Origin: Minutocellus sp. GHC0000111 | Taxonomy: Eukaryota | Assembly: GCA_977018835.1 (NCBI GenBank) | Contig: OZ361259.1 | Location: forward strand, 4,278,001-4,342,000 | Direction of reading: 5' to 3' | DNA: 64,000 bases | Part shown: positions 2,495 to 64,000 of the stretch, in pieces | How positions within the stretch are numbered: position 1 is the stretch's first letter | Layout of the letters: the number at the start of each line of letters is the position of its first letter | Translations under genes and position numbers: made by a program | Notes under the pieces: model-generated | Database searches by the model: none | Told to the model about the DNA's origin: nothing | What the model saw: the letters and a program-made list of their open reading frames with translations, nothing else

Positions 2495-4375
2495 TTATAG
2501 CAAATCAATGACTCCATCGTCTTCATCATTTTCATCTATGTCGTCCTCAATGTCATCATCTTCGCCGGGAGCATCAATTGGCCAGAGTGGTTCACCATCC
2601 TCTTCAGCTTCATCCTCGGCAATTTTTGCGAGACCAGCCTTTCCCCGTCTGGTCTCCACAAGATTGTTACCGCCACGACTTCTCTTGATGTTGTTATACA
2701 TCACTGGAAGTTTTCCAAATACATTGAGAAAGGCCTCTTTTGATGCGACATTGGCCCATACTTTCATCACAGTCTTGTCGAGAGCATTCGCATCATTCTT
2801 CTGACCGCGATGCTCCTTTTCGACTCCCAACTGCAAAGACATCCAGATGCCGAGATCAAGAACATTTGTCTCGGGCGACCGAGGAACCTGCTGGATTATC
2901 TCAATCTTATATTTGTTTTTGAGGTCCTCGGTGTACTTCTCAACTGCTTCATTGGACCCATGACCGCCGGCATTGTCCATCATAAGACACATAACATCAG
3001 ACTCCTGAATGTTTTGTGGATCCCACTTCACCCAATGATGTGCGTCTCGAATCGCCTTCCCGACCTCATTCATAGTCTCCAACATCCATTTGGAGTCGCA
3101 GCTACAGTCCTTGGTAACCTTATCGCCCCGTTGATACCGCACCCCGAGCTCAAGGTCGTCGATCTCAACCTTCACCTTCTCTCCATTGCTATCAGGAGTG
3201 TGTCGCTTGAGACTCGAGATCTTTTGATTGTAGCCAACAGCGGCATGCTTGCGACTTTTTGCCTGACCGTCGGATTTGTAGTCCTCGCATTGAAGTTCCA
3301 ATCGCTCTGTAACAAACTCAGAAAGGCCGTAGATTTCGGCAATGTGGTCGCAAAGATGGCCGGCGGTCATGTCAGCATTCTCGTCGTAAATGTCGCGCCA
3401 ATCTTTGTCATTTTTTAGCGCATCGTTGACCTTAGCATCTGGAGAGAAATTCTGATTACGCGTAAGCTTTTCCACCTTCTGCTCCCTGGCGACTCTCTTG
3501 ATCATGATGCGCCCATTGAAATCAACGTCTTTGGTTTCATCCTTCATTGGTCGGCCAACAACTCCAAGACACACAACTTTGACAGGGTGTCTTCTGGATC
3601 GAATTTTCGGGCTTGCCTCGGAAGCATGGATGGACGCGAGGTTCGGACTGCTTAGTTCTTCGTCAGAAAGTGGCAACATCTTGATCTTTCGTCGCCGAGT
3701 AGCAGTGTAAAACCACTTTTCATCAAGATGCGCTACAGGAATGTTGGGATCGGTCGTAATGTCCTCCCACTTTTCGATCCAATCAAGTCGCTTCCTGCAA
3801 CATTCGGGGGTGAGCCTCGGCTTCTCGATCGACGACTTCTCCTTGCCGCCTTGCTTTTTCCACCAGCGAAAAAGCTGAAGACGATGGAGACTAATTGTCA
3901 GCCTGTCTTCATCTGGAGTAGCTGATTTTGCGCTCATGCAGTCAGCTAGCTCCTTAAAGGTTGCCATCGCACCCTTCATCCGAGTGGCATGCCAACACAG
4001 CTCGCGGAGACATCCTGGCTCCTTCTCCTCGATCATGTCCGTGCATGCCTTCCTTCCACGAACCTCCTTTCTGCCGATGGGATTGCTGATGCCATCAGTA
4101 AGGCTTTTGTAGAGCTGGTCTCTCCACTTGTAAAGCTGAGAACCACCGGTTGACTTGGCACAACCGTGATCGCACGCAACTTGCCGACACGCGGCAGTTG
4201 CAATTTGTTGCCGGTCTTCATGCGTGCGAGTTGGGTCGCCGTATCCCCACCAATCCGCGAGAGCCACGGCGCTGAACCGCATTCTTTCATTCGCCTGCTT
4301 TTCTTTTCTGATTGGTGTTGGTTCGGTGACGGTTGCATTGGGACGAGGAGGACGGAGCATGTCATCGTTGGCCAT
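2495..4375 (-). CDS. Mariner-type DDD transposase; ORFs 4468-5013 and 5062-5385 are probably frameshifted N-terminal parts
   Basis: Motifs AHLDEKWFY, MMDNAGGHG and PRSPETNVLDLGIW, with 39 residues between the second and third Asp. Confidence 0.85.
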   Translation of the reverse strand: MANDDMLRPPRPNATVTEPTPIRKEKQANERMRFSAVALADWWGYGDPTRTHEDRQQIATAACRQVACDHGCAKSTGGSQLYKWRDQLYKSLTDGISNPIGRKEVRGRKACTDMIEEKEPGCLRELCWHATRMKGAMATFKELADCMSAKSATPDEDRLTISLHRLQLFRWWKKQGGKEKSSIEKPRLTPECCRKRLDWIEKWEDITTDPNIPVAHLDEKWFYTATRRRKIKMLPLSDEELSSPNLASIHASEASPKIRSRRHPVKVVCLGVVGRPMKDETKDVDFNGRIMIKRVAREQKVEKLTRNQNFSPDAKVNDALKNDKDWRDIYDENADMTAGHLCDHIAEIYGLSEFVTERLELQCEDYKSDGQAKSRKHAAVGYNQKISSLKRHTPDSNGEKVKVEIDDLELGVRYQRGDKVTKDCSCDSKWMLETMNEVGKAIRDAHHWVKWDPQNIQESDVMCLMMDNAGGHGSNEAVEKYTEDLKNKYKIEIIQQVPRSPETNVLDLGIWMSLQLGVEKEHRGQKNDANALDKTVMKVWANVASKEAFLNVFGKLPVMYNNIKRSRGGNNLVETRRGKAGLAKIAEDEAEEDGEPLWPIDAPGEDDDIEDDIDENDEDDGVIDLL

Positions 4376-5408
4376 CCGAACAACAACAAAGTCGAGGCCG
4401 AGAGCGACCTTTGCCTGTTCATCAATGTCACTGGAGGTGGCACAGACAACGGAAGCATCGGCTCCTCCTAAACCTTCATCATTGGGGAGGCTGCAGCTGC
4501 TTCAGTAGCGGAAGTATCACCAGTTCCCTTCAGTATGCTGAGGAGACTTGCTGGCATCCAACCCAGTTTCTTGGCCTCGTCGACTAGTGATTTTACTCTT
4601 GCTTCGCAATGCGCTGACTGCACCTCCTTTCTGTGAGCTGACAACCTCTCACCTAGCTTAGTAGCTAAGACAGTCGAGCGCCCAGAGAACAGAACTTCAT
4701 CGGGATTTCTTTTCTCGTGCACCTTCTGTCCCTCCGGTCCAGAGAATTTCGGGTGGTTGTCCTCCTTCTTTTTACGCAACCTGTGAGCACAAACATGAAG
4801 CGCCCTGCGTCTTGTCTTCCCTCTCGGCCGACACGTCGACAAGTGCAACTTCAAACTACAATGCTCCTTGAGATGTTGCTGCATATCCTTCCATTTTTCC
4901 TCGTTGTGCTGTAGCTCATACTTTCCTCCACCGACGGACTTGGAACGCAACAAGTCGGCCTCGATGAAAGCAGGGAGGACGTCTTCCCCCATTTCTGCCG
5001 AGAACCAACACAAATGTCATCTTTGCCGCAGGAATCGGGGGTTACTCTCCACCACAGATCCTTACCAGCCCTTCGAATGACATCTGCTGCAAGGAGAAAG
5101 GCCATGGGGATAGGAGGAGGGGCCGTCCTCTTCTTCGCCGACGACGGTGACGGTTTGGCGCGGGGGCGAATTTGACCGTGGCCGCTTCTTCGACGTGTTT
5201 GCGCTCGGCGATGGTGTTTTCGGCTCAGCTGCCGCCTTTGCCGCCTTCCTGGATGCCTTGGTGTTGCCTCTCTTGCTCCCTGAGAACGAAGTTCTGCTGC
5301 GTTTGTATTTTTTGGGCGTGGTCTGGTTGGTCGTCGTCATCGTCACAAAATTTGCGGGTTGCGGTGAGGGTGTGCGGGGGACCAAAAAATATGTGTGTTC
5401 CTGCCAGA

Positions 5409-11931: not shown

Positions 11932-13959
11932 CTACAAATCCACAACTATCGACCTGGCTTCGGGCCGGTACTGTCTTGTCTTGACTCCAGCCATCTCAAA
12001 CATAATTCTACTAGCTCTGCAGCCATCAGTATCGTGGTAATAATCGTTGAGATACACAACTTCTCTAATGCCCGCCTGGATGATGACCTTGGCACAATCG
12101 TTGCACGGAAAAAGTGCGACATAAATGGTAGCACCTCGCACGTCTGCCGAACACTTATTCAGAATGGCATTGACCTCCGCGTGAGCCACGTAGCAATACT
12201 TTTTGTGAAGTTCTGATTTGGCCTTCCGCGACCAAGGCAGACATTCGTCAGAACATCCTCTACAGTCAGAACACGAGAAAGATATTAGATGAGACGGGTA
12301 AAAACACAATCATAACTTGGTAGGCATCTTTCACCACATACATCCAAGCATCAGATTGCAGTTAAAAAAGCTTAGAGTCCCATGATTTGGTCGACAAAAT
12401 AGTTGTTGTTGTTGAGCCGTGAGGCCATTCATCACATGCTTGAACGGGTACTAGTAGGAAAATGTAAAGACAAACATCAGCAAAAGAGCAGCTACGCACC
12501 TTGGAAAGCCGTTGTACCCAATGCCAATGATACACTTATTCCCGTCGACAATACACGCTCCAACTTGCGTATTTGGATCCTTGGAACGCTGTGCACTAAG
12601 GAATGAAACCGCCATGAAATAGGTGTCCCAGGACAAGTACCCTCCTCGTTTGGGAACCACCGACGGTCCTGTTGGATCGTATTTGGCTTCTCTCAATAAC
12701 AAATCCCTATACTTTGTCTGAGCGGCAGAGGCACAAGAGCTCTCATGATTATTGCCGCTACCATCCCCACCTTTCGTAATGTCGGAAATTTTAGACGACG
12801 GGGACTTTGCCTCACCCTCTTCTTGCGACGAAACCAGCGGACCAAAATCCAACGTGATGGAATTTCGTGTCGCGTTGTACTTCCTCATCGATACTCCAGC
12901 CATTTGAAACATAATTCGTGCGGCACGGTAGGCATCGTCATTTTCTGGCCCATTTTCCAAGTATACCACCTCTTGAATGCGCGACTGAATGATCACCTTC
13001 GCACATTCGTTGCAGGGGAATCGGGCGACATACATTCGCGACCCTGCGACGTCGGCGCTGCACTTGTTGAGAATGGCATTGACCTCGGCGTGGCACATGA
13101 ATGGGTCTCGGGTGTGGAGGATTGAGAGTGGCTGCTGTTTTGACGATGTGTTGTCATCGTCGTCGGTCTTCTTTTCTTCATTCTGGCCACTGCCGCTACC
13201 ATTGGATGAGAAACTATTAGATATTACATTTGCTGCCCATGGGAGACAATCATCGGGGCAACCCCTAGGGAAACCATTGTAACTTTGTGGTTGTAGCAGA
13301 GAAACACAACGGAATATCAGGTGAGAAAAAGAAATACAAGGGTATCATGCAGTCCACCGGCGCAGAAAAGATATCATAGATAGATAAACATACCCAATTC
13401 CCACGATGCGATTGTCTTCATCGACGATGCAGGCCCCAACCTGCGAATGCGGATCCTTGGACCGCTGCGCGCTCAAACTAGCGACGGCCATGAAGTAGTC
13501 ATCCCACGTGAGGTATCCCTCCCTCTTGGGCATGTTGTGAGGATCATCAATGTCATACCCTGCCTCTCTCTGCATCAGATTCCGGATTTCATTTTTGCTC
13601 ATGATACCTGCCGGAGATCGGCCGGAGTCGCAATTGTTGCTGAAACCAGCACCGCCACCGCCACCCCTGGGAGTTGTATATGCCTGTGATTGTGCCGCCT
13701 TGGGACTTCCGGACGCGGCATTGCTGCACAAATTGTCATGGGTGAGGACGGCATCCGTTGAGGACGATGGAAGCGGCGCAGGAATTGACGCCGACGTCGG
13801 AGGAGTGAGGAAGGCAGGGCGAGAAGAAGCCGATTGAGCAGCAGCACCCTGAGATGACTGGTCATCAACACCATCTTTGAAATCGGCAGGATTCATCCGC
13901 ACTCGTTTCGTTGGTGGAGAGGTATCCTCCGCTGTGCCTGTACCATCGGTGGTGGACAT
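11932..13959 (-). CDS. dCMP deaminase with two tandem deaminase domains (2 introns)
   Basis: Two copies of [23 protein letters not shown]...[20 protein letters not shown] and FPCN.CAKVIIQ. Confidence 0.9.
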
Positions 13960-14722
13960 GTTGGTGGTGGTTGTCGTCGTCAGGTGCTGCCGAGATTGGA
14001 TGAGGTTGTGCCGGGAACGGGAGGGATCAATTGACGCCGATACAAGTGCCCACACCAAGATGGAGGCAAGGGCAAACGAACGAGGAATGATGGCCGGTAT
14101 CGTGTTTGCGATGGTATAGAGGATTGAAGGATAAGCGAGCAAGAGCAAAGGGAGAGAGGTCAGGACGGTGCAATGGTTATCTTCCCTCGCAGGAAAGGCT
14201 TGCTTGGCTGCTTGGCTGCTACTAAGTACTAAGTATGCTGCTGCTGCTTGCTTTTGATCTCATTTTTCATGCTCGCTTTTGCTCTCCCTGTCAAATTCGT
14301 CTTTCCGTTTTTCGAGTGAGTTTCTAAGTTATTGACGCGGACAGAGGGAAAGACGATTTACTGGTTTTCGCTTACTACTAATACTAACTGTGCCCGATTT
14401 GTTCGTGCTCGTGATCTCATAATCATCGGCTGTCTGCTCCCTGGAAAGGTATGTGCAATTCGCCCAGCCAATCCCCGGCCGCTTGGCGGTATCCATCGGA
14501 AAGTTCCCGCAACTGTGTGGAAAGTCGATTGAAAGGCGTTCGTGGCGGTTCCGGCGGGCGGCGAAGATGGTCTGCGACCGAATTCGCGCTGTCACGACCC
14601 ATGACTCGACTGTTCTTTTCTCTCTTTCCATCGATCTCCTTTCTCACATCACACTTTTGTATCGCTCTCCCTCCTTTTGGACCAGGTTTGAGCAACCTGA
14701 GATTATACAAACAAACAGCAAC

Positions 14723-21754: not shown

Positions 21755-22760
21755 ATTTGGCAGTCAAGAATGGAATGCGGCTGGATGAAATGTTTTGTTA
21801 ACACTTTGGTTTCATCGGTGTATTGGTCTGTGTTGGTGAAATACTGCCTAAGAAGGAAGAACGACAAAGGCGCGACGGCTTCAGGGATGGGCCCCATCGT
21901 CACGAGCGGAAAATGCTCAGGCGGTATCGACGAGCACCCCACTCCCTCTTCGCCAAATCGAAAGGTTTTGGCATCGATTTGCGACTGCGGAACGCCGGGC
22001 AGAATTCCCGATAACCAAGACGACCACGTCAACGCAACAGGGAAGGCCTAAGCAGTATCTAGCTAGGTAGCGTGGGTAATACTGCCGATGAAGTGACCAC
22101 CAGACCTTTTCGGCATCGAAAAGCACCACAGCATGAGCAGCACGAGAGCTGCATCCGCTGCGTCGTCTCGTCGGACCAAGCAAAGGCTCGTTCAGTTCCT
22201 CTTTGGTCCGAAGCATTCTGGGAAGGGAAGGGAGGCGCATACGAGGTCCGGGACAGCAATTGCGGGGACCCGGGTTTTTGGGTCTTTGGACTTTCCGACA
22301 CGGCGGTTTGCGCGCACTTTGAAAAACACGCGGCAAAGCAAGCAAATCAAAACACACCCGTCAACAACCACCGACCTCCAAGCAATTACCACAAATAGAC
22401 TGGGCAACTTCTGCCGACTGGCGCTTCAAGAAGCTTCCATACTCATGGATACTCCAAAGGGACACATCTTCAGTCCACCGCGTCCACCGAAACGCGCCGA
22501 GGCGACTGCATTCAGCCCCTCGCGCCATGAGAAGGAAACTTCCAACGAAACGCCGGAACATCCGCGGTATCGAGAGAACAAGGACAACGATGACGAGGAG
22601 GACAACCAAGGGGTCCCACCGGCATCGTCAGACCTCACATCTCCTCGTGTGTTGAAATATCGACGCGAGTACAACGAAGAGGATGGCTTCGCCGCCGAAC
22701 AAGCCCAAGCAAGGAAGTACTTGCATCATGACATATTGCGTGCCGACTTTCGCGGTACCG

Positions 22761-24515
22761 CTACCGTTTCATCTCATTCTGATGAAGATGATTCATTCTC
22801 AGAGATGAGCATAGCAGCCGCCGACGCCAAGCCAAGCGGCGAGAGGAGAAAGCCCGTGAGCTCATTCGACCTTCCCTCCGCCACGCCCATGGTAACAAGT
22901 CCAATGTCAGTTCATTGCTACCACCGGCCTTAATCACCAGGCCCATTATCCTCCAGTACTGAATGAAGGCCGAAGCAATTTTGCAGTTAGGCATGCTATC
23001 GTAAACGTCCTCGGCAGTGTCCCAGATCTGGTCGGTGGAAATGACGGAGGTGCCTACCATTTTTCGTGCCCATTCCGAGTGCCGCCGGCTCATCGCGGGG
23101 AACACGCTCAAGTCAAGGACGTTGGCATGAGGCATCTGCGATGCCTGTGGCAGCCACGTCCAGCCTTGCTCAGCACAGAAGTTAGTAACAAATTGCGTGA
23201 AGGTTCCGTCCTCGTGAGGCCCGGCCTGGTCGCCCTGGATAATAACATGGCAATCTTCGTATTGCTTGCCCGGACCGACAAGGTTGAGAATCGCTGGGAA
23301 AATAGTCTCCTTGAACACGAGGAGCAAAGAGCATTTCGGATCCTTTTTGGTGCCTTCGTTCGATCCAGTAACGCAACAATCAACAAGAAACGACTCTCCT
23401 TTCCGGCGAAGAGGTTCCTTTGGTGTCCCATCGGGGTTGGTATTTGGGTACCGTATTGAACCATCAGGCTGTGTTACTGCTTCGTGCTGAGCTCGCTCCG
23501 CTATTTTAGGAGCTTGAGCTCGTACCAGTGGCAGTTTTACAACCTCGCACCCATTCTCAAGAGAACCGTCAAAGACAGCGGCAACAAATGCAATGGCCAT
23601 GACCTTGTTGATGTGGCTCCTGTGAAAGGCCGCGTAATCTCGCTTTTTCACGCCGATTTCCTCGCAAGCCTTCGCAAAAGCTCGGAGGACGAGACCCCAG
23701 AACCATTTCTCATCGTAATGCACGAGGAGAACTCGCTTCTTTCCATTCGGTAAATTGCCGTTCTCATCCCGAATGTTCCAGAAATTCCGCACGAGCTGAG
23801 CAAAGGCCAGATGCTTAGCTTTTTGAGCCTCCGACAGGCGCGGCACCAGCCGCTCCTTGTAGAAAGTGAAGGTGTCGAATGACTTGAGCCACCGCTCAAT
23901 CGTCTTGTGCGAGCACCACAGACCAATGTCCTGCTCCAAACCACGGAACGATCGCTGAGGATTGCTGGAAAGGGCCGCAACAATGTCGTTCTGTATGTAC
24001 GGCTGCCTTGCCAAGTGCTCCCGCCTCTTCAGCTCCCACAGCTGCTTGTCATCGTCGCTGATGGTGTCGTACTCGGTCAGGTGCGTTTTGAGCAACTCAT
24101 TGTCAGCCTCCTTCGATGCAGAATCATAGCAGTCTTCCTTTGCCTCTCTGCACTTATTGATTGCATACAGGCGCTTAGCAGTAGAGCACTGCTCAGCCGT
24201 CTTGTAATCGTCAATGGCAGACTTTGGCCGAACCGACGAATCCTTGGGAGCGGGGGTGACAAATGCAAGCTCGGCCTGATCTGCTGGTGTGCCCCGGGCA
24301 ATGGCATTCTTCCGAGACTCGTTCTGGATGTCTCGCAGCCCATTCTTACCCTTCCCCCACGCTCTGCAGAGCTCACGAACAGTGACCCTCCCATCCGACT
24401 GAAACTTCTGCGATGAGCTGTTCCTGTTTGAGTGCTGCGTCCCTCCGGTGCTCTTCAAATGCACTTCCAGAAGCAATCCCTGGGCAAAAAGCATGCTCTT
24501 CTCCTCGTCGTTCAA
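22761..24515 (-). CDS. Mariner-type DD38D transposase, C-terminal part
   Basis: Motifs VHYDEKWFW, IQGDQAGPH and QMPHANVLDLSVF, with 38 residues between the second and third Asp. Confidence 0.85.
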   Translation of the reverse strand: MNDEEKSMLFAQGLLLEVHLKSTGGTQHSNRNSSSQKFQSDGRVTVRELCRAWGKGKNGLRDIQNESRKNAIARGTPADQAELAFVTPAPKDSSVRPKSAIDDYKTAEQCSTAKRLYAINKCREAKEDCYDSASKEADNELLKTHLTEYDTISDDDKQLWELKRREHLARQPYIQNDIVAALSSNPQRSFRGLEQDIGLWCSHKTIERWLKSFDTFTFYKERLVPRLSEAQKAKHLAFAQLVRNFWNIRDENGNLPNGKKRVLLVHYDEKWFWGLVLRAFAKACEEIGVKKRDYAAFHRSHINKVMAIAFVAAVFDGSLENGCEVVKLPLVRAQAPKIAERAQHEAVTQPDGSIRYPNTNPDGTPKEPLRRKGESFLVDCCVTGSNEGTKKDPKCSLLLVFKETIFPAILNLVGPGKQYEDCHVIIQGDQAGPHEDGTFTQFVTNFCAEQGWTWLPQASQMPHANVLDLSVFPAMSRRHSEWARKMVGTSVISTDQIWDTAEDVYDSMPNCKIASAFIQYWRIMGLVIKAGGSNELTLDLLPWAWRREGRMSSRAFSSRRLAWRRRLLCSSLRMNHLHQNEMKR

Positions 24516-25740
24516 TCCCTTCTTGCCTTTGGTTGCTCAATTCGCCTCCTTTCGAAGACATCCATCCTTCTTCCTGTGTCGCATGCCATGCAAAAGCTTT
24601 CCGACAAGAGTCTCCATCGGACTGCCATCGCTCTTTGCGCTTGTTGGCACCGGCGCTGTCAACACTATCCATCCCCGCCTGAGCAGCTACTGTCCGTTTG
24701 CGCCTGTCCTTGGCAATTGAATCGGTGTTGAGGCCGAGTGGGATCGGGGTGATGGCCTTGAGAGGCACATTCTTATGCATCATGCCACCAAAAGGCTTCT
24801 CATGCTGGACATCGCAAAGAGTGCCTCCACCGACACCTCGACTGACCACAACAAATCCCTTGCCCTCAGGCCGATTCATGTTGGGACTGAAGTCGGCAGA
24901 CACAAGGACACATTCCCCAGTGCTGATGGCAGGTCGCATGTTGTCTTCCATTCTCATTGCTTTCTTGCGTTCGGGTGGTGCATCCGTCGGCATCCTGTGC
25001 GACCGAAGATGTTCACGCATTTGTGCCCTCTGCTCCAAATGACGCATCGCCTCCTTCATTTTGTTCCTTTTCTTCTCGGCATCGGCCATGGCCTTTTCAT
25101 CCTTCCGCTTTTCTCGTTTCAAGGCATCCCTTAGCCCTTTCAAAGCCTCCTCTGCAGCTTTGTGTTGCGCTTCGGCCTCAACCAGCAGCACATCCAAATT
25201 CTCCTCGGTCGATCCACCAGAATTGGCGGTGCCGGCAGCAGAAACACCGACACTGGCAGGATTGCCAGACTCTTCACTGTTGCCGCTTCCATCCACCACC
25301 ATGGACTCGGCGATGCCCCCAGCTTCGATGTTGTCATCACCAGGACGAGCAGCGACACCAGCATTGTCCTCGACCGTCGGCTCAGGACTGGCATCGGCGT
25401 CATTGGATGACGAATTGCGCCGAGCAATTTGAATTTGAGAAATCGGCACATCTTGTGCCGGATCAGGACCGGTCTGGCTCGGACGACAGCACAGCTCCTC
25501 CTCTCGGGCTTGCTCCACAACATCCTGCTGTTTCTGAAGTGAGAGGCCCGCCCATGCCCGGTTCGCTGTGGTCTGGATCATCCCAGGAGACTTGCCACGA
25601 ATCGTAGAGGCATCGATGGTGCCGCTCCGATGGACAAAATGATCAAAGCATGGGATGGAGCTGCCGGACCGACGGGAGCGGCGACATGCTGGCGCATCAG
25701 CTGCGGTGGCAGCAGCAGCAACAGCCATTTGCATTAACAT
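24373..25740 (-). pseudogene. N-terminal extension of the transposase, left-arm copy (2-bp deletion near 24640)
   Basis: Identical to the right-arm ORF up to SAGANKR, then frameshifted. Confidence 0.65.
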
Positions 25741-28041
25741 GGTGTTGGATGCAGTGCTTTGTGGCAGCAGAGCAACAGTTTGTGTGTCGGGTGGGTTGGA
25801 AATGAGGAAGGTTTCATTGAGTGGCGGGCGCGCCGGGCGGGTGATGATTTTTTTGGCCCGCTCGATTTTGGCGCGGGGTCACCCGGACCGCACAAGATGC
25901 GCCATTGTGGGGACCATGGAGACCGATGTCGGAGCTCAAACCATGTGGCTACTTGAATCAATGCATTTGGGAGGTGGTGGTGGGGTCGGGAGGTGGAGGA
26001 GGTGACCGGTTGTCATCGGAAAAACTGGCAGAAGTCGGGAGGGGCGATGGATGGGGTGAATCGGCCAGACGCTGGCATGGGAAGATGAAGTCGATGTCTC
26101 CGAGTCGGTCCAAGGTCAAGGACCAACCCGTTCTGGAGACACCACGCTCATCCCTTGCGTGAAGCGGATGCCGTCGGCACTGCCATCTTGAAGACAGGAT
26201 GATGGCAAATAAATGCTGCTACGAGGTCATTTGCTGTCGTCCTGTCTTCAAGATGGCGGTGACGTCCGCGACCTCGTAGCAGCATTTATTTGCCATCATC
26301 CTGTCTTCAAGATGGCAGTGCCGACGGCATCCGCTTCACGCAAGGGATGAGCGTGGTGTCTCCAGAACGGGTTGGTCCTTGACCTTGGACCGACTCGGAG
26401 ACATCGACTTCATCTTCCCATGCCAGCGTCTGGCCGATTCACCCCATCCATCGCCCCTCCCGACTTCTGCCAGTTTTTCCGATGACAACCGGTCACCTCC
26501 TCCACCTCCCGACCCCACCACCACCTCCCAAATGCATTGATTCAAGTAGCCACATGGTTTGAGCTCCGACATCGGTCTCCATGGTCCCCACAATGGCGCA
26601 TCTTGTGCGGTCCGGGTGACCCCGCGCCAAAATCGAGCGGGCCAAAAAAATCATCACCCGCCCGGCGCGCCCGCCACTCAATGAAACCTTCCTCATTTCC
26701 AACCCACCCGACACACAAACTGTTGCTCTGCTGCCACAAAGCACTGCATCCAACACCATGTTAATGCAAATGGCTGTTGCTGCTGCTGCCACCGCAGCTG
26801 ATGCGCCAGCATGTCGCCGCTCCCGTCGGTCCGGCAGCTCCATCCCATGCTTTGATCATTTTGTCCATCGGAGCGGCACCATCGATGCCTCTACGATTCG
26901 TGGCAAGTCTCCTGGGATGATCCAGACCACAGCGAACCGGGCATGGGCGGGCCTCTCACTTCAGAAACAGCAGGATGTTGTGGAGCAAGCCCGAGAGGAG
27001 GAGCTGTGCTGTCGTCCGAGCCAGACCGGTCCTGATCCGGCACAAGATGTGCCGATTTCTCAAATTCAAATTGCTCGGCGCAATTCGTCATCCAATGACG
27101 CCGATGCCAGTCCTGAGCCGACGGTCGAGGACAATGCTGGTGTCGCTGCTCGTCCTGGTGATGACAACATCGAAGCTGGGGGCATCGCCGAGTCCATGGT
27201 GGTGGATGGAAGCGGCAACAGTGAAGAGTCTGGCAATCCTGCCAGTGTCGGTGTTTCTGCTGCCGGCACCGCCAATTCTGGTGGATCGACCGAGGAGAAT
27301 TTGGATGTGCTGCTGGTTGAGGCCGAAGCGCAACACAAAGCTGCAGAGGAGGCTTTGAAAGGGCTAAGGGATGCCTTGAAACGAGAAAAGCGGAAGGATG
27401 AAAAGGCCATGGCCGATGCCGAGAAGAAAAGGAACAAAATGAAGGAGGCGATGCGTCATTTGGAGCAGAGGGCACAAATGCGTGAACATCTTCGGTCGCA
27501 CAGGATGCCGACGGATGCACCACCCGAACGCAAGAAAGCAATGAGAATGGAAGACAACATGCGACCTGCCATCAGCACTGGGGAATGTGTCCTTGTGTCT
27601 GCCGACTTCAGTCCCAACATGAATCGGCCTGAGGGCAAGGGATTTGTTGTGGTCAGTCGAGGTGTCGGTGGAGGCACTCTTTGCGATGTCCAGCATGAGA
27701 AGCCTTTTGGTGGCATGATGCATAAGAATGTGCCTCTCAAGGCCATCACCCCGATCCCACTCGGCCTCAACACCGATTCAATTGCCAAGGACAGGCGCAA
27801 ACGGACAGTAGCTGCTCAGGCGGGGATGGATAGTGTTGACAGCGCCGGTGCCAACAAGCGTGCAAAGAGCGATGGCAGTCCGATGGAGACTCTTGTCGGA
27901 AAGCTTTTGCATGGCATGCGACACAGGAAGAAGGATGGATGTCTTCGAAAGGAGGCGAATTGAGCAACCAAAGGCAAGAAGGGATTGAACGACGAGGAGA
28001 AGAGCATGCTTTTTGCCCAGGGATTGCTTCTGGAAGTGCAT
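24459..28041. repeat. About 1.77-kb near-perfect inverted repeat with a 41-nt spacer (26229-26269)
   Basis: Mirror-image ORFs about a centre near 26249 (e.g. 25740 pairs with 26758). The only arm difference I noticed is a 2-bp indel. Confidence 0.95.
26758..28041 (+). pseudogene. N-terminal extension of the transposase, right-arm copy
   Basis: After the TGA at 27961 the frame continues ATKGKKGLNDEEKSMLFAQGLLLEVH, which is the start of the transposase ORF, and is then cut by a deletion. Confidence 0.7.
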
Positions 28042-29113
28042 ACCGCGGATGTTCCGGCGTTTCGTTGGAAGTTTCCTTCTCATGGCGCGAGGGGCTGAAT
28101 GCAGTCGCCTCGGCGCGTTTCGGTGGACGCGGTGGACTGAAGATGTGTCCCTTTGGAGTATCCATGAGTATGGAAGCTTCTTGAAGCGCCAGTCGGCAGA
28201 AGTTGCCCAGTCTATTTGTGGTAATTGCTTGGAGGTCGGTGGTTGTTGACGGGTGTGTTTTGATTTGCTTGCTTTGCCGCGTGTTTTTCAAGGTGCGCGC
28301 AAACCGCCGTGTCGGAAAGTCCAAAGACCCAAAAACCCGGGTCCCCGAAATTGCTGTCCCGGACCTCGTAAGAAGCTTGACCATGCTTCGTATTCCTTTG
28401 ATGAACTCAGGGCGGCGTTTTTGGAGAGAGTGCATGAAATACATCCGGACAAGCGAAGGGGGGATACCACCGAGACCGACACTTCTGGACACCATGAATT
28501 TGTGGAGTTACAATCTGCCTGGGCCGAGTATGAAAAGCTGGCGAAAATGATGATGACCAAAGTGGGAAGTGGTAGCTCAGATGCAAACTTTACTCTCTTT
28601 GGTGTGGGCTGCTCCTTCTCGGATAACGAATCGGTCTCAAATAATGGACGAGGCGGCCAGAGGGTGGTTTACCTCTGGGATAATTACTGAAACAGCAACG
28701 AGCTCAAATGAAAGTGGCGGTACTTCAAATGTGCCAATGAGAGAAGCTTCTATTGTGGACGATGACCTGTTTGTTTCGATTTCAAATGATCAAAAATCGA
28801 AAGAGCAGAAGGATGACATGCTTTCCAAAAAACCACAAAGAAAGGCATTGGTTGACATACCGAAGTACCTACAAAAGCGAGCAGAAAGGTGAAACGATTA
28901 CCCTCCCCCATTGGTGATATTACTAGTAATCACATGTACAAAAATGTGTAATGTTGTCAGTGTAAATATTGTTGAATTTTCTACCGCAATTATTGAATAT
29001 ATATCTTTTGCCTGGCATTGCTATCACATGAACTTTTCTTGTCCTCGGAGTTTCATGCCAGATCAAATCTTTGATTGATATCGACATCTAGTCTAGTAGC
29101 TAGTTGAAGAATC

Positions 29114-40853: not shown

Positions 40854-42314
40854 TTAGGCAGATACTGCCATTCGCGGCCGGTGTAAGGGGCCAGCTACCC
40901 TCGCCCTCTTTGGCCGGTGGTGACTTGTGCTCTCGTCATTATCAAGAACTTTGGTGATATTGATATGCTGACGCTTGGCATGATGATGTCCGTGGCAAAG
41001 ATTTTTCCTTGGTGGCCGATTCGGTGGTGGTGGCATCATTTTGCGATCCAAATCTTCGTTGGTCTCAAAGGTTGGGGTAATGTTGGACACACCCTCTGGT
41101 CCCTGTTGAGGATAGTGCTCATTATCGGTGCTCTCTTCGTCATCCTCCGAGGCAGATGAAGAACTGTCGTCAACGCTGATAGATCGCGTGGGAGCAGGCG
41201 TCCGCGTGGGGTGGTGATGGCCGACGACGATCGCTGTGCGGGAGTATGCCATCTTTACAATCTCCTGCACAACTTCACGGACCTTGGCACTTAGGACAGC
41301 TCGTAGATCACTCGATTCAATATTGATGGCCACTGTCTCTATGCGAGATGTGAAGCGCGAGAAGATGGCGGTGATGCTACCTGGAACACTCAGGCGGAGA
41401 GTCGTCTTATCAGTTGAATCGAGGAGAGAAAGGTCCAGCACCGCTTCAAAGACAATGGGTTGGGTGACGGTAGTCTTCTTGCTGGACTGCGATGGTGGTT
41501 GTGCCTTGTTGTTGGAAGCGGTCGATGACGAGGCTTCGTCCGTTGACTCCTTTGGTGGGCACGTTACCAAGTTTGTCACCGATGCCAGGATGGCGTACGG
41601 CTTCTCCTCGACTTTGTCCTCTTCGTCGCTACTGCTGTCGCTGGAGCTGCCGCTGAGATCTTCTAGAATGTTGGGAAAGAGGCTACGAATGGCGTTGGCG
41701 TGGGCCAGGGCGGTGGCTTCGTCCATGCGCCCCCCCGATTCGGCGTTCCCTGCCTCTCGGGAGGCCATCAGCGATCGCTGGAGGAGGGCCAGTGCGGTCC
41801 TTCTCAACTCGGCGTCAAGAAGCGATTGAAATGCGGAGAGGAAGTTGGTGTGGGCCGTCGGCGATGCCTGGGAGATGTCGAGCTTGTTGAAACGCATGTT
41901 CCGGACGAGATTGTCGAAGGGATGACTATTGTTGTAGTTTTGGTGACGCACATGTTCGTTGAGAGGGAACGTCGAGTTGTCGCTAGAGTCACCGGTGGTA
42001 GACGATGGTGTCAAGAATGAGAATTTGTTCTTTCGCTCGGTAAAGTCAAGGCAGGGCAACGAGAAGGTTGCAACCTTGCATCCTGAGCCGGAGGACTCGA
42101 GGAAGCACGACAACTGCTTGGCACCGGGACAGATGACTTCATGGTGGTCGTTCCTTGGGCTGCTGCCGGAGGACGATGTTCGGATTCGCTTCGTGCCGGC
42201 TTTACGACCAGACGACGACTGCTGGGCGACGCCGTCGACACTGCTGCACGAGGCGAGGCGCGAGACGAAGGCGTGCAGGACCTGGGTTGAGTCGAGCTGC
42301 TGCTTGGGACCCAT
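40854..42314 (-). CDS. Hypothetical protein
   Basis: Long ORF with Ser-rich linkers and a structured core (IVFEAVLDL...VPGSITAIF). Confidence 0.65.
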   Translation of the reverse strand: MGPKQQLDSTQVLHAFVSRLASCSSVDGVAQQSSSGRKAGTKRIRTSSSGSSPRNDHHEVICPGAKQLSCFLESSGSGCKVATFSLPCLDFTERKNKFSFLTPSSTTGDSSDNSTFPLNEHVRHQNYNNSHPFDNLVRNMRFNKLDISQASPTAHTNFLSAFQSLLDAELRRTALALLQRSLMASREAGNAESGGRMDEATALAHANAIRSLFPNILEDLSGSSSDSSSDEEDKVEEKPYAILASVTNLVTCPPKESTDEASSSTASNNKAQPPSQSSKKTTVTQPIVFEAVLDLSLLDSTDKTTLRLSVPGSITAIFSRFTSRIETVAINIESSDLRAVLSAKVREVVQEIVKMAYSRTAIVVGHHHPTRTPAPTRSISVDDSSSSASEDDEESTDNEHYPQQGPEGVSNITPTFETNEDLDRKMMPPPPNRPPRKNLCHGHHHAKRQHINITKVLDNDESTSHHRPKRARVAGPLHRPRMAVSA

Positions 42315-43839: not shown

Positions 43840-44269
43840 ATATGCTTATTGTAATCGAACTTCCCTTTGGCATCGTCGTCGGGTCGATTGGCTTGGATTT
43901 TCAGTTGTTCATCTTTCATTTTTGGCTCTTTCTTCATTCGACCGGGATTGCGAATGTGAAGGAGACGGACAAAGATATAGCGATACTATTTCGATATCTG
44001 CGGTAATTAACTTAGTCTACTGATTACTAGTAGATCTTTAAAGACTCTACACGTACCGGTACCGATGGTAGTCTACCGGTAACATCATGGAGTGGGGTGA
44101 TCTCTCCGGTGGGGTGATCTCTCCGTGGGGTGATGGCGTGAGATGGCAGTGATAGCATGCCCAATATCCGGGTTATCTTGTGGTGTTCGGCGAGGCTCGG
44201 TGAGCTTTTCCCACCAGCGTCGTGCGCATGCGTCATTTACCGTGCTCGCTTGCTCCATTGCTCCATGCC

Positions 44270-45583
44270 ATGATGAAGATCTACGTGCCGGTCCTTGCCA
44301 CCGCCGTCTTGGCGGCGGCCTCTTCAGTGTCTGCGTTTCATGTACACCGCCAGTCGCCTCGACCCTCCTTTTCCAAGCTCTCGGTATACGTCAACGTCGC
44401 AGAAGATGCACCGAGATCTGTGCAGCCGTTCGACGAATGGGCGACGGCATGCGGTGTGCAGCGATGCGGGGGTTTCCAGCTAACAAGTGAAGACGAATAC
44501 GGACAAAATATTGGCGTGATGACTACCGAAGACTTGCCGGCGGGAAGTCCTGTCTTGTTCGTTCCCGGCAATATGATACTCAGTAGCTATCAGGCGGCCG
44601 CAGAAGTCGGGCGGATCGATGCTGCCGAGAAGCGACTTGTATCAGCGAAGGCGGCCGACCACGTCCCTCAGTTCTATTTATTTCTCAAGATTCTATACGA
44701 ATACGAACAAGGCGATGCAAGTCCATACTACCCATGGTTTGACTCTTTGCCGAGGTACTTCAGCTCTGGTTCGTCGATGACTCCCTTCTGTTTCGAATGC
44801 CTGCCGCCTCTTGCAGGTTATTTGGCAATGAACGAGCGAGTCAGATACATTCAATTCTTCCAGGCATTGCTATATGTTGAATTTCTCAGTGAGGAAACAA
44901 AAAAGAACAAAGATCTGACGAGATGGGCATTTGCTCTCATTTATACTCGCGGCCTCACTGCCCCGGATGGCGATGTTCGGATTGTACCTATGGCCGACTA
45001 CTTTAATCATGGCACAGAGACAGAGGTTGAAATCAGCTTCACAGATGAGGGGGACTGTGTTGCCTACGCCTCGAGAGACGTTCCCGCGGGCTCGCCCTTG
45101 CGCATTTCCTATGGAGACCCGACAAACCCCTCTGCGCTCTTTGCCAAGTACGGGTTTCTGGATGAGTCGTCGTCGGCCACATTCTGCAAAATCATGATCA
45201 AACGTCCCTCGAAGGAATTGGTAGATATGGGCTACGACCATTCCAAGATGGTCTTTTATAAAGACACGGGCGAGGTGAGTCAAGAAGTCTGGGATGTTCT
45301 ATTGTATCAGATTCTGCAAGAGATCAATCCGACTGATATGCAAAGGCTATACGAGGCACAAGTGCGGGGTGATATAGCAAGCAAGCAGGCCATCCACCAA
45401 CAATATTATCCCCAAACTGCAGCTGCATTGGTCAAGCACGTCAATGGATTTTTAAACGATCTGAACACTCTCAAGAGCAAGAGTGTTGGCAAGGACCCAG
45501 CTCAGCACCCGAGGCTGCCTCTCATAATGGCCCATAATGAGTTCGTCAGGGAGACCTTCGAAAGAGTCAGTGCAAACTTATAA
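44270..45583 (+). CDS. Plastid-targeted SET-domain (Rubisco LSMT-like) methyltransferase
   Basis: VSA-FHV presequence; IVPMADYFNHG and LRISYG...LFAKYGF motifs. Confidence 0.85.
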   Translation: MMKIYVPVLATAVLAAASSVSAFHVHRQSPRPSFSKLSVYVNVAEDAPRSVQPFDEWATACGVQRCGGFQLTSEDEYGQNIGVMTTEDLPAGSPVLFVPGNMILSSYQAAAEVGRIDAAEKRLVSAKAADHVPQFYLFLKILYEYEQGDASPYYPWFDSLPRYFSSGSSMTPFCFECLPPLAGYLAMNERVRYIQFFQALLYVEFLSEETKKNKDLTRWAFALIYTRGLTAPDGDVRIVPMADYFNHGTETEVEISFTDEGDCVAYASRDVPAGSPLRISYGDPTNPSALFAKYGFLDESSSATFCKIMIKRPSKELVDMGYDHSKMVFYKDTGEVSQEVWDVLLYQILQEINPTDMQRLYEAQVRGDIASKQAIHQQYYPQTAAALVKHVNGFLNDLNTLKSKSVGKDPAQHPRLPLIMAHNEFVRETFERVSANL

Positions 45584-50391: not shown

Positions 50392-51996
50392 CACATGTAG
50401 CCAGGGTTACTGGTAAGTACTTTTGGCCGGCCGGCCGGGCGGACTATGAAAAAATGAACTGATTTTTTTCAGTACAAAAACTCCAGCCAACGGGGCGCTT
50501 CCCCTGAAACAGAACGTGAACGGTAGAACAGCAGGCAGAAGCACAGAGTCAACTTTGATGATACCCCCACATGCATGTACTCCAGTTGCTGGGCTGTCTC
50601 GTCGTGGTGTTTCGCACGGTAAAAAATTCAAAAAATTGAGGGAGAAAGGCCGTCAAAATCTCCCTACGGGAAACCTGCAACAGATTGGTAGTGTAATGAA
50701 TCTTATAAAGAACGCAGAAGTCCGATCGCATCTTCTTACCTACAGTCCGTCCCCGAAAATCGTGCTAGAGTAATTCTCGTAAGTTGCGCAACAACCAAAG
50801 CAAAAGCACTGCATGTTTGGTAAGCAAGTGCATCGACGATGTCAAAAATCAAGAAAATGTTGGAATGTGACATGTCAATGTGCTCCCCATGACTAGCACA
50901 TGTAGAACACAAATCCATGCTGTTTGGTTACATGCCTTCTCATGGAGCGGCGTAATTGAGGTCACCATTTTGGAGGCACATTTGCGGGACCAAATGACTT
51001 TGTCACGTGAAAGCATGAGGGGTTTGGTCCCGAAAACCAAATGTGACTCAATCGACCCAAACCCACACGACGACTTTTTCCCGTTTGCTCCTTGTGGGCG
51101 GTCACATTTTGAGAGAACGGAAAAGAACTGGAAAGCTAAACTCAACAGGCACACAGCAGACCCCCGCCCGCGTGTGCCTAAAAAAGAGCTCCAAAAACTC
51201 CGAAAACTGAATGAGACATAAAACCGCCCAGCGACGGCAGTCAGTGCCTTTTTTTAGCAACCGCACAGTAAAATTAATGCAGGCCTCAATCTTTTGGGGT
51301 GCCCCTTTTGAGGCCGGATTTGGACAGATCTCGTCATCCTGTGTCAGAGAAAACTTGGTCCGGTCGAAAACATTTATCGGGAAGTTGAGATGTCTAGCTA
51401 GGAAAAACTGAGTCAAGGGTGTCGGGTTGAATTTTAATTCATGCATGCTCACAAGTTGCGCAACGCATTTTTACGCGGTGAAAGCTAGCAGTAGCGTAGT
51501 AGCTGACGTTTGCTGTTCGGAAGGAATCAAAAAAGGAAAACAAGAACGCGCGAAAGCCGAAAAGCGTGTTGAGCTCTCGGCTTCAAGCGGCTGATCGATT
51601 ATTTTCCCTGAGTGACACCTTACTGATCAATTATTTCACTGGCTGATCCAACATTTTCAGCTGCCTTTGAAGCCAATCTCGACACGATTTTCGACTTTGG
51701 CTCTTTTTGTTTTCGTTTTTCGATTCCTTCCGAGGTTGGTCTAGTGGCGGGCGTTGTCGGCGGGCCGGTTGGTCTTGTGGGAGCAGTGCACAATGCGCAT
51801 CTTGCACATGGCAAAAGTAAGAGGGAAATGTTCTTTCCTTAGCATTTTTACATCACGTGCTGCCCAGTTTCTACCCCTTTTGAAAGTAGTCGAAGGTCCG
51901 GAAAAACACCCCTTTCTGCGAAAAAAAAAATTGCCGTTCCGTCGTTGGCCAACTGGCGTGTGAGGGGTCACTTCAGTACCAGCCTGGCTACACGTG
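50392..51996. mobile_element. Putative non-autonomous DNA transposon, about 1.6 kb
   Basis: Terminal inverted repeat CACATGTAGCCAGG / CCTGGCTACACGTG (13 of 14 match), AA on both flanks, and no long ORF inside. Confidence 0.6.
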
Positions 51997-52075
51997 AATA
52001 GAAATGATCGCATGCATTCCCTCTTCTAGCTACGTAGCTTCAACATAGTAAAATTAAGAAAGTTAGTTACGTATC

Positions 52076-54824: not shown

Positions 54825-55046
54825 GGTTGCTGATACCAACCAAGGTATTTGTGTGGAAGATTACTTTGCAGGCAATTGTGGCAGACCAGGGAGCACGCAG
54901 CGAGTCAGACCGCCCTCGAAAATAAGCCCTTCAACCTTCAATCGATTGTGGCGACGCGCCCGAAGCAAAAAGCCGAGCAAAAGCAAAAACTTGGGCGGTT
55001 CGCAGCGTCTCTGTGGTCTTTCCGTCGCTCGCTACTTGGCCCGGCC

Positions 55047-62575: not shown

Positions 62576-62760
62576 TTTGGTGGAACGTCGTACAACTGAA
62601 CAACCGCTTCTTCTTCCTCTTTTGGGTTGGGCCGGCCAAGAGCACATAACAAAACACGTGTTTTGTTATGTGCTCTTGGGGCTGGCTGGCCGTTGTGGGT
62701 ACCGCACGGTGGGGATGAGCTGGCGACGGTGGTTAGCAGCAGGCACTAAAACTGCATTCC

Positions 62761-64000
62761 TGTAGTGCCCAGTTTTTCTGCTGACCACCACCTTCGCCTC
62801 CTCTCGTCTCAACTGACCAAGCCACAACCATCTGCGATTGCTGCCGTTGCAATTGCTAAGTCAGCTTACAGTACCGGCTCCCAGAGCCTGTCTCTCTCTC
62901 TCTCTCAGCAGTTAGTTAGTTTTAGCACTAGGTTGGTGCTACTCTACGAGTTCGTAATTATTGGCCGACGACACACCACCACTGCTGCTGTTGTTAGTTA
63001 GTCCAGAGACCGCAGTCGACTCCGGAGTCAAACGGCCACGGCTCAGCTCCGTTGATAGTGCACGTAGATCCGATACCAGTCTCTACGACGGCAGAACAGT
63101 GCATGGCCGAACCAGATCGACCGGAACTGGATCACGTGTTGTTCGGAGTGGCAAGAGACCTCATCGTCCGAGGAGACTCTCTCCTGACCTACCTTCCACG
63201 AGGCTGGGACGACAGACTCAGACGTCAGATTCGGCCCGGGCGCAGAAGTTTCTTCACAGCCAGGGCGTCGTCCGAGAGACTGACCACAGACGCACTGGAT
63301 TGGTGGAGAAGTTTTGCCGAGGGCCGAATCGACGTTACCGAGCACCTCACCGATCTCGTCGAGCGCGCCACAGGCTACCTCTCCCATCGAGAGCCACGGG
63401 GTACCAGCCATCCCCAGCAGCAGCCGTTTCACACCTTACTCCAGTAGCGCACGGTCTGGTCGCCGAGTACCTCGAGCAACAAGCCTTCTTGGTGTCACCG
63501 GACTGGCCCACGCACCTCGTCAACATCTGGCTGACAGCCACGCGCCTTACCGAGCCTGAGATCCGCCGGGCACACGAGACGGCAACTGAGTTGGACCTGA
63601 GCAGTGCACTGTACCGACTACCACGGGCAGACGGAGGCGTCGTGGTTCAACAGTATCGGGGGCGAAGGTTCCGGAGGCATCGGTAGCAGCAGCGCGGCAA
63701 CACCATTGCATCTGGCCCCAGCTCTGCCGGCTCTCGCAGTGCATCCTCCACTACCAGGCCGACCGAAAAGAAAGACGGCGCATCGCGGCCAGAGAGGGCA
63801 GACCTCTAGAGCCGACACCGCACGCTTGCATAGGTTCACGGGGGAGCGAGCTTCCACCAACGCTGCCGCTCACTTATTTCGAGTGGGAGGTAAGGCCACT
63901 CTTCTACCCACGTGACGCACACGACCGAACCGAGCGGGCTGGCGTCAGTGTGGCATTGGAGCGAGGAGATCTCATCGGCCCTTTCGCCCTGATCACCCAG
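62761..64000 (+). other. Degenerate coding-like sequence, possibly the 5' part of a retroelement
   Basis: GC-rich reading frames broken by stops and frameshifts, no recognisable domain, running off the window edge. Confidence 0.3.

What the first reader, a model, noticed from the sequence alone, without database searches (positions are those of the whole stretch)
24459..28041. TpA dinucleotides are largely erased in the duplicated arms: candidate 'reverse-RIP' genome-defence process
Seen: by hand count there are about 8 TpA in 26281-28040 (1760 nt, duplicated arm) versus about 47 in 22561-24460 (1900 nt, single-copy part of the same element and same ancestral ORF). The arm ORF has 0 Tyr in 401 codons but 19 Met and many Cys/His (IPCFDHFVHR, GECVLV, LCDVQHEK), whereas the single-copy transposase ORF has 12 Tyr in 584. 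TAY->TGY/CAY and ATA->ATG are the changes that A->G / T->C transitions at TpA would produce. Known: fungal RIP (CpA->TpA) and CpG deamination do not remove TpA. Inference: a homology- or heterochromatin-directed mutator acting on the A of TpA (e.g. adenine deamination or modification). I know of no described mechanism for this, but have not searched the literature. The near-identity of the arms implies mutation before duplication or later homogenisation.
Basis: partly seen in the sequence, partly recalled or inferred. Interest (0 to 1): 0.9.

Follow-up and report, generated by a model that had tools for sequence, protein, structure and literature searches.

The report
TA-erasing mutator hits diatom transposons
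In this likely diatom genome, copies of two jumping-gene families have had many TA steps rewritten to TG or CA while neighbouring genes keep normal TA levels, the same signature recently reported in another alga and likely caused by a still unidentified enzyme that deaminates adenine in DNA.

Summary
The counts are exact: 8 TpA in 26281-28040 against 47 in 22561-24460 (o/e 0.10 vs 0.46; window 0.56). The region is a palindromic composite of a high-copy Tc1/mariner-type transposon in a likely diatom. The loss is real mutation, TpA>TpG/CpA. Across 63 protein copies Tyr>Cys/His fills 93 of 433 cells, Tyr transversions 1 of 433, and the matched second-position A>G changes in other contexts at most 0.7%. 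Relatives keep Tyr. A second family in the window behaves alike. The process prefers palindromic RTAY (median 0.62 mutated vs 0.07 at YTAY), hits both strands without coordination, and weakens from 5' to 3' in both families. It is not arm-specific: other copies show the same contrast, and the arms are identical at every TA-derived site, so mutation preceded duplication or was homogenised. The signature is already in print for integrated viral DNA of Bigelowiella natans (bioRxiv 10.64898/2026.01.13.699255). My nine searches found no diatom report, but this scan noted it earlier in other diatom genomes. Best mechanism, inferred: a host ADAT2/TadA-type DNA adenine deaminase (about 0.5). Verdict: new member of a recently described, mechanistically open kind.

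The parts
22242..28368 (.). Palindromic composite of a Tc1/mariner-type DNA transposon: a near-complete copy (left, minus strand) and an internally deleted copy (right, plus strand), head to head; both outer ends are element 3' ends
   Evidence: 3' end matches the 3' end of relatives L001/L003 at 85%
22240..22241 (.). Left TA target-site duplication, followed by the terminal repeat CGAGGTC
28369..28370 (.). Right TA target-site duplication, preceded by the terminal repeat
24459..26228 (-). Left arm: 5' half of the element; 8 TpA in 24459-26219, 0 RTAY against 80 RCAY/RTGY; carries a private 2-nt deletion after 24637
   Evidence: other copies have the 2 nt
26270..28041 (+). Right arm, same TG/CA state as the left arm at every site
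26222..26276 (.). 55-nt centre piece with the family's terminal repeat at both ends and TA on each side (26220, 26277); axis of the palindrome; other copies continue differently beyond 26220
   Evidence: loose ends
26758..27960 (+). N-terminal 401 codons of the transposase ORF, 0 Tyr; all 6 Tyr-type columns read His or Cys; ends at an in-frame TGA that both arms share and that other copies read as Arg (CpG-type change)
   Evidence: row 24539
22761..24536 (-). C-terminal transposase ORF (HTH_Tnp_Tc3_2, E 8.8e-8; D,D38D triad in family copy P0080); mostly single-copy here and less mutated; the window copy departs from other copies at 22912-22915 and lacks their C-terminus
22242..22570 (-). 3' end of the element, repeated at 28040-28368; TA sites retained, 2 non-TA differences between the two copies
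28370..28687 (+). Downstream part of a host ORF with a weak DnaJ match (E 0.0011, 19.4 bits, below the 27.8 cut-off); its frame continues that of 22136-22240 across a single TA, so the composite sits in one TA site of this gene (inferred)
2495..5336 (-). Second Tc1/mariner-like family (D,D39D spacing in relative P0250; one cluster has 275 members) with the same Tyr>Cys/His decay; RTAY 7 vs 70 in 2495-4501

Best explanation
Copies of this transposon family, and of a second one in the window, carry TpA>TpG and TpA>CpA transitions far above background, on both strands, mostly at RTAY and more in the 5' half, likely because a host adenine deaminase of the ADAT2/TadA type converts A to inosine in transposon DNA. 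Shown: the spectrum, its direction (TA ancestral), the RTAY preference, the 5'-to-3' decline, the lack of strand coordination, and many different site patterns among copies. Inferred: that the lesion is on A (A>I>G, read as TG on one strand and CA on the other); that hits accumulate one at a time in each inserted copy, each hit destroying its own target; that the gradient reflects access near the element's 5' end (transcription, R-loops or chromatin); and that the effect is defensive, since it strips Tyr, Ile and Val codons from the transposase. The window's arms are the 5' half of a copy that was more mutated than average and was then duplicated as a palindrome (or kept identical by conversion); the duplication is not the trigger.
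For: DNA: 21 of the 28 listed C/T and G/A rows where the window has C or G restore a TA in other copies (chance 0.28, p=3.7e-7); 15 of them lie in the arm. Outgroup L001: 0 of 35 aligned TA kept in the arm (13 CA, 11 TG), while the other 15 dinucleotides are kept at 0.44-0.63. Proteins, family 1 (63 rows): Y>C 41/433, Y>H 52/433, Y>F/S/N/D 1/433; H>R 4/570, D>G 2/1432, N>S 4/1117, K>R 2/1618, F>L/S 1/866; Arg CpG-type changes 4/1441 (majority-polarised). Family 2 (26 rows, against relative P0250): Y>C 98/417, Y>H 126/417. Both Cys and His occur at 29 of 46 Tyr columns, and Y>R double hits in 0 of 497 cells. RTAY 328/587 mutated vs YTAY 26/308; site medians 0.62 vs 0.07, p=7e-6. Gradient: Spearman -0.79 (14 RTAY sites) and -0.75 (17 sites). 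Same-strand pairs 101/197 and 454/906, equal to permutations. Same signature and an ADAT2 candidate in B. natans; amphioxus ADAT2/3 deaminates A in DNA in vitro (PMC10354150, passages).
Against: No enzyme, modified base or de novo mutation was observed; no genome was held, so no proteome search was possible. A>G on one strand cannot be told from T>C on the other by sequence. The need for a purine before and a pyrimidine after TA makes the motif palindromic, which fits a double-strand-reading enzyme or a symmetric mark at least as well as a single-strand deaminase. Amphioxus ADAT2 also deaminates C and prefers hairpin loops, whereas no matching C>T excess is seen here. The B. natans target is described as transcriptionally silent, which sits poorly with a transcription-linked gradient. 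Cells are not independent events, and only sites that change an amino acid are visible in the protein data. Non-RTAY sites are also lost in the arm (50/198 cells in other copies, summed), and one GTAA site in the 3' half is hot (21/44).
Confidence: 0.5

Rival explanations
1. A symmetric epigenetic mark at RTAY in transposons (a modified thymine such as 5-hydroxymethyl- or 5-formyluracil, or N6-methyladenine at TpA) decays or mis-pairs to give the transitions, as 5mCpG decays to TpG/CpA. The mutation would be a by-product of silencing.
For: The hot motif is a palindrome and both flanks matter; hits are strand-uncoordinated and, in the 3' half of family 1, Poisson-like (mean 1.15, variance 1.16 in 34 copies), as for slow decay of a mark. 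5-formyluracil mis-pairing with G is recalled, not from a call.
Against: No such mark is reported for diatoms in the 19 listings (listings and abstract starts only). In B. natans the process ran in only 11 of 15 lines at about 1000 times background, which suggests a switched enzyme. 6mA sites are not known for pure A>G transitions (recalled).
Confidence: 0.27
2. A homology-sensing 'reverse RIP': pairing of repeats, here the inverted arms, directs the mutator.
For: Both affected families are high-copy (clusters of 69, 74, 35, 22 and 275 members). The window arm is above the family mean (16/22 sites lost vs 135/350 cells). Diatoms have RID-like DNMT4 of unknown function (PMC9998398, passages).
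Against: The arms are identical at all TA-derived sites, and the 3 differences since duplication are not at TA. The window's single-copy part is also above the family mean (7/45 vs 146/1347). The 3' part of the element has the highest summed contig depth yet the least mutation. The duplicated 331-nt 3' ends keep their TA sites. The B. natans target is single-copy. RID-type enzymes act on C (recalled).
Confidence: 0.1
3. Error-prone repair synthesis (Pol eta or iota type) or GC-biased conversion among copies removes TA.
For: Both would give A>G/T>C on both strands (recalled); conversion could explain the identity of the arms.
Against: A>G in AA context is 4/1117 (N>S) and 2/1618 (K>R) against 41/433 in TA, far more specific than the WA motif of Pol eta (recalled). 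Conversion spreads variants but would not create both TG and CA at 26 of 31 RTAY columns, and 16 site patterns in 34 copies argue for separate events.
Confidence: 0.08
4. Composition, codon bias, selection against self-insertion at TA, or an assembly or base-calling artefact.
For: TpA is low in all coding DNA here (window o/e 0.56). The palindrome junctions were not confirmed by reads.
Against: Related elements in 46 metagenome loci have TpA o/e 0.37-0.90 over the match and the closest 0.51-0.54. The changes hit conserved Tyr in broken, non-autonomous copies. They appear in many separate records and in four independent runs. An artefact of the palindrome would change the arm count, not the spectrum.
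Confidence: 0.03

Closest known systems
TpA-specific hypermutation of integrated NCLDV and virophage DNA in Bigelowiella natans (Mettrop et al., bioRxiv 10.64898/2026.01.13.699255; parts 1-4 of 5 of the main text read; supplements not seen)
   Same: Almost only TpA>TpG and TpA>CpA transitions, on both strands, localised to foreign DNA, enzyme unknown, ADAT2 proposed; low-TpA coding sequences there are enriched for DDE endonuclease and reverse transcriptase domains.
   Different: Here the host is a likely diatom (stramenopile, not Rhizaria); the targets are high-copy DNA transposons, not a single-copy silent viral insert; depletion reaches o/e 0.10 against 0.45; copy-level data give an RTAY preference, a 5'-to-3' decline and no strand coordination. 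The main text has no hit for diatom, stramenopile, flanking, trinucleotide or palindrom; its Table S2 may bear on the flanking preference.
Repeat-induced point mutation (RIP) of Pezizomycotina (search listings and abstract starts; details recalled)
   Same: Dinucleotide-specific transition hypermutation concentrated in transposons, degrading their ORFs.
   Different: Opposite chemistry and direction (C>T at CpA creates TpA; here TpA is destroyed); no sign that local duplication triggers it; sexual-cycle timing and RID dependence untested.
Amphioxus ADAT2/ADAT3 DNA deamination (PMC10354150; passages)
   Same: A natural eukaryotic enzyme able to deaminate A in DNA, giving A:T>G:C.
   Different: It also deaminates C and prefers hairpin loops; no TpA or repeat targeting appears in the passages seen.
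AID somatic hypermutation (recalled, no call)
   Same: Palindromic-leaning hot motif, both strands, load falling with distance from the 5' end.
   Different: AID acts on C; a promoter link is only inferred here.
IS630-Tc1-mariner DNA transposons
   Same: TA target duplication, terminal inverted repeats, Tc3-type HTH, DDD triad.
   Different: Long (about 900-1000 aa) transposase, and here a head-to-head composite with two 3' ends outside.

Membership tests
B. natans-type TpA hypermutation | Changes are almost only TpA>TpG / TpA>CpA transitions | tested here: met
   Y>C/H 93/433 vs Y transversions 1/433 and matched other-context transitions at most 0.7%; 21 of 28 DNA rows; 24 of 35 outgroup TA become TG/CA
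B. natans-type TpA hypermutation | Both strands affected | tested here: met
   Cys 149, His 179 at RTAY Tyr columns; window TG 10, CA 11
B. natans-type TpA hypermutation | Confined to foreign or mobile DNA, host genes spared | tested here: inconclusive
   Composition fits (RTAY share 0.28 in the rest of the window, 0.00 in arms, 0.09 in family 2), but no host-gene polymorphism was examined, and the likely MULE-type ORFs at 55947-57675 are not depleted (0.21, 0.30)
B. natans-type TpA hypermutation | About 1000-fold raised de novo rate in some clonal lines | not testable with these tools
   needs mutation-accumulation lines
B. natans-type TpA hypermutation | ADAT2-like candidate enzyme in the genome | not testable with these tools
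   no genome held; the only deaminase seen in the window is a dCMP deaminase
Fungal RIP | C>T transitions, mainly CpA>TpA | tested here: not met
   C>Y 0/462 and H>Y 0/547 when polarised on relatives; relatives keep Tyr
Fungal RIP | Triggered by duplication, partners mutated independently | tested here: not met
   arms identical at all TA-derived sites; contrast is family-wide. Genome-wide copy-number dependence was not testable
Fungal RIP | Premeiotic timing and dependence on RID | not testable with these tools
   needs crosses and mutants
IS630-Tc1-mariner transposon | TA target-site duplication and terminal inverted repeats | tested here: met
   TA plus CGAGGTC at 22240 and mirrored at 28370; same ends in L001-L003
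IS630-Tc1-mariner transposon | Tc3-type HTH and DDD/E catalytic triad | tested here: met
   PF01498 above cut-off; D,D38D spacing in P0080

The most novel reading that the evidence does not exclude
Diatoms run an AID-like, 5'-anchored adenine hypermutation system that reads the palindrome RTAY on both strands and wears down transposase genes from the promoter end; with Bigelowiella it would be an ancient SAR-wide DNA-editing defence and a natural source of a DNA adenine deaminase.
Probability: 0.3. Interest if true: 0.88.

Novelty: new member of a known kind. Interest (0 to 1): 0.62.

Why it matters
Targeted adenine mutation of chromosomal DNA is known from one preprint in one rhizarian alga, with no enzyme. 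Seeing it, copy by copy, on DNA transposons of a likely diatom extends it to a second SAR branch and to a group where gene knock-outs are routine. The RTAY motif, the 5'-to-3' decline and the lack of strand coordination are concrete fingerprints for finding the enzyme. A natural DNA adenine deaminase would also matter for base editing. Practically, repeat ages and transposase annotations in such genomes are distorted by this process.

Tried and rejected
No whole genome was held, so genome-wide TpA against copy number and a proteome search for deaminases could not be run. A search for longer fused homologues found none (weak evidence). Nine clusters of related transposases from short contigs gave 5 Y>C/H in 1622 Tyr cells; such contigs collapse copies, so this does not show absence in those organisms; cluster P0270 shows CpG-type Arg changes instead (21/871). 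None of 46 metagenome loci shows arm-like depletion over the match (o/e 0.37-0.90), with the same limit. Read support for the centre and deletion junctions of the palindrome was not obtained, so an assembly origin of the palindrome is not excluded; the matching TA duplication and the continuous host reading frame argue against it. Rfam: 0 matches in 22000-28700. The window's deaminase gene is a dCMP deaminase, rejected as candidate. RNA editing as the source was rejected: the window is genomic, and RNA-run contigs mostly carry the TA state. CpG decay was rejected as the cause (4/1441 Arg cells), although CpG o/e in the arm is mildly low (0.79-0.80), partly an arithmetic effect of added C and G. 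The host ORF row 44204-45583 was read on the wrong strand and is not used. Literature: nine searches; two searches returned 0 papers; only, then 54 and 62, returned the Bigelowiella preprint. PMC6604790 (passages) has 0 hits for TpA and reports CG as the most mutable dinucleotide in Phaeodactylum.
Full report
Observation. The hand counts are exact: 8 TpA in 26281-28040 and 47 in 22561-24460, o/e 0.10 and 0.46, against 0.56 for the window; TG and CA are raised in the arm. The difference is far beyond chance (Fisher p=1.9e-7), and the lowest of 986 other 1760-nt windows, taken outside the two transposons, has 34 TpA. The arm ORF has 0 Tyr and 19 Met in 401 codons, the transposase ORF 12 Tyr. The low zone runs about 250 nt past the arm edge into sequence that is single-copy here (1 TpA in 24207-24458).

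Host and element. A host SET-domain protein of the window falls nearest to clusters whose commonest taxon is Bacillariophyta (scores 0.97-0.98), so the host is likely a diatom; no genome was held. The region 22242-28368 is bounded by TA and the terminal repeat CGAGGTC on both sides, as in relatives L001-L003. It encodes a Tc3-type HTH (PF01498) and, in family copy P0080, a D,D38D triad. It is a head-to-head composite: a near-complete copy on the left, a copy lacking 22571-24458 on the right, and a 55-nt piece with terminal repeats at the axis. The flanks read as one small ORF with a weak DnaJ match interrupted at a single TA, which suggests one real insertion; read support for the inner junctions was not obtained. 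The family is abundant: clusters of 69, 22, 35 and 74 proteins, mostly on megabase contigs. That these records are the same species as the window is inferred from 90-98% identity, not shown.

Mutation spectrum, DNA. Contigs of four runs were laid on 22100-26300; 40 of 66 difference rows were shown. Of the 28 rows where the window has G or C and the copies have A or T, 21 restore a TpA (10 TG, 11 CA; chance 0.28, p=3.7e-7), and 2 more rows are window TpA with TG in part of the copies. Fifteen of the 21 lie in the arm, where 8 TpA remain; six lie in the single-copy part, where 45 remain (p=6e-6). Against the metagenome relative L001 (71% identical), 0 of 35 aligned TpA are kept in the arm (13 CA, 11 TG, 11 other), while the other 15 dinucleotides are kept at 0.44-0.63; in the single-copy part 17 of 49 are kept.

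Mutation spectrum, proteins. The tool listed 15 members for each large cluster; 63 of 64 family-1 proteins aligned, and cells near gaps or under 72% local identity were masked. Polarised on the family majority: Y>C 41/433, Y>H 52/433, Y>F/S/N/D 1/433. The matched changes in other contexts are H>R 4/570, D>G 2/1432, N>S 4/1117, K>R 2/1618, E>G 1/1708, C>R 1/490, F>L/S 1/866, and CpG-type Arg changes are 4/1441. Relatives have Tyr at these columns, both Cys and His occur at 29 of 46 Tyr columns, and the double hit Y>R is 0 of 497 cells. TA is therefore ancestral, and each hit removes its own target. A second Tc1/mariner-like family at 2495-5336 (26 proteins examined; its largest cluster has 275) gives Y>C 98/417 and Y>H 126/417 against relative P0250, and Y>C/H 39/208 on the majority. 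Cells count copies, not independent events.

Fingerprint. Tyr codons after a purine (RTAY) are mutated in 328 of 587 cells, after a pyrimidine (YTAY) in 26 of 308; site medians 0.62 (31 sites) and 0.07 (15 sites), p=7e-6. Since Y>H at YTAY is the same event as A>G at RTAR on the other strand, both flanks matter and the hot motif is a palindrome. Each arm has 0 RTAY against 80 RCAY/RTGY; the rest of the window has a share of 0.28. Among RTAY columns the mutated share falls along the ORF in both families (Spearman -0.79, p=0.0009; -0.75, p=0.0006). Pairs of hits within a copy are on the same strand no more often than in permutations (101/197; 454/906), and load differs among copies more than site rates predict (chi2 65.8 for 37 copies, 83.9 for 24), although the 3' half of family 1 alone is Poisson-like.

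Is it the duplication? No. After dropping 3 arm sites and 4 single-copy sites at which 90% or more of copies carry the window state (likely lone back-changes), the window has lost 16 of 22 detectable sites in the arm and 7 of 45 in the single-copy part; other copies have lost 135 of 350 and 146 of 1347 cells (68 proteins offered). Before dropping, the figures were 19/25, 11/49, 202/420 and 279/1484. The contrast is thus family-wide, and it remains within RTAY sites (85/152 vs 111/414). The window copy is simply more mutated than average in both parts, and site selection from the window's own state inflates its value. The arms share the same TG or CA at every site; their 3 differences (one 2-nt deletion, two substitutions in the 331-nt ends) are not at TA. 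Mutation came before the duplication, or conversion has kept the arms equal.

Mechanism. Most likely (0.5) a host adenine deaminase acting on transposon DNA: A>I>G reads as TG on one strand and CA on the other and yields only transitions. This step is inferred. The main rival (0.27) is decay of a symmetric mark on T or A at RTAY, which the palindromic motif favours. Homology-directed mutation (0.10), error-prone synthesis or biased conversion (0.08) and artefact or composition (0.03) fit worse for the reasons given in the rival list. The existence, direction and context of the process itself I put above 0.95. What sets the 5'-to-3' decline is open; access linked to the element's promoter is my guess.

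Known systems. Mettrop et al. (bioRxiv 10.64898/2026.01.13.699255; parts 1-4 of 5 read, supplements not seen) measured in mutation-accumulation lines of Bigelowiella natans 231 mutations in two integrated viral regions, nearly all A>G or T>C at TpA, about 1000 times background, in 11 of 15 lines; they propose ADAT2 and note DDE endonuclease domains among low-TpA coding sequences. This window shows the same kind of process. The preprint's main text does not mention diatoms or a flanking preference. Amphioxus ADAT2/3 deaminates A and C in DNA hairpins (PMC10354150, passages). Diatom DNMT4 is RID-like and of unknown function (PMC9998398, passages), but RIP makes TpA, and its defining features fail here. 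Nine searches of the held library gave no diatom report; subscription journals are not covered. This scan's own notes record the process, the RTAY rule and gradients in other diatom genomes; they are unchecked and not counted as support. I obtained the RTAY result before seeing those RTAY notes, and the preprint came up in the same turn as notes naming it.

Verdict. Real and striking, but neither arm-specific nor undescribed: a new member, in a second SAR lineage and on DNA transposons, of a hypermutation process first reported in 2026 whose enzyme is unknown. Interest 0.62.

Noticed in passing
window 50900-52000: Intergenic tract with RTAY 1 against 45 RCAY/RTGY (p=4e-6 against the rest of the window); holds an imperfect inverted element at 51517-51733. 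Likely non-autonomous elements hit by the same process.
   Followed up: partly
window 55040-55940: RTAY 1 against 32 (p=2e-4) at the 3' side of ORFs 55314-57675 that look MULE-like (recalled likeness; no convincing Pfam hit); the ORFs at 55947-57675 themselves are not depleted. Short direct repeats at 55690-55815.
   Followed up: partly
window 22136-22241 and 28370-28687: The composite interrupts a small host ORF with a weak DnaJ match; contigs of runs X2 and X5 cover the left flank, stop matching at 22241 and run on, which may be the empty allele.
   Followed up: partly
window 26219-26220: Other copies continue beyond the centre with either TT or AA where the window has TA (loose ends): transversion-type variants at this one site, unexplained.
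   Followed up: no
window 23766-25052: Many family copies lack this stretch (joints; proteins P0006, P0007), a common in-frame deletion derivative.
   Followed up: partly
window 12053-14259: dCMP deaminase gene with repeated deaminase segments (best PDB match 2w4l_A, E 9.8e-48); not an ADAT.
   Followed up: partly
window 62636-62679: Perfect 44-nt palindrome, next to a GC-rich, low-AT stretch at 63000-64000; RTAY mildly low in 62600-64000 (7 vs 43, p=0.014).
   Followed up: no
window 41001-42000: RTAY 3 against 30 (p=0.007, one of 64 bins) inside an apparent host ORF; may be chance.
   Followed up: no
L002:1-220: The contig of the closest relative starts with what reads like the 3' end of a family-2-type element, so the two families sit side by side there too.
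   Followed up: no
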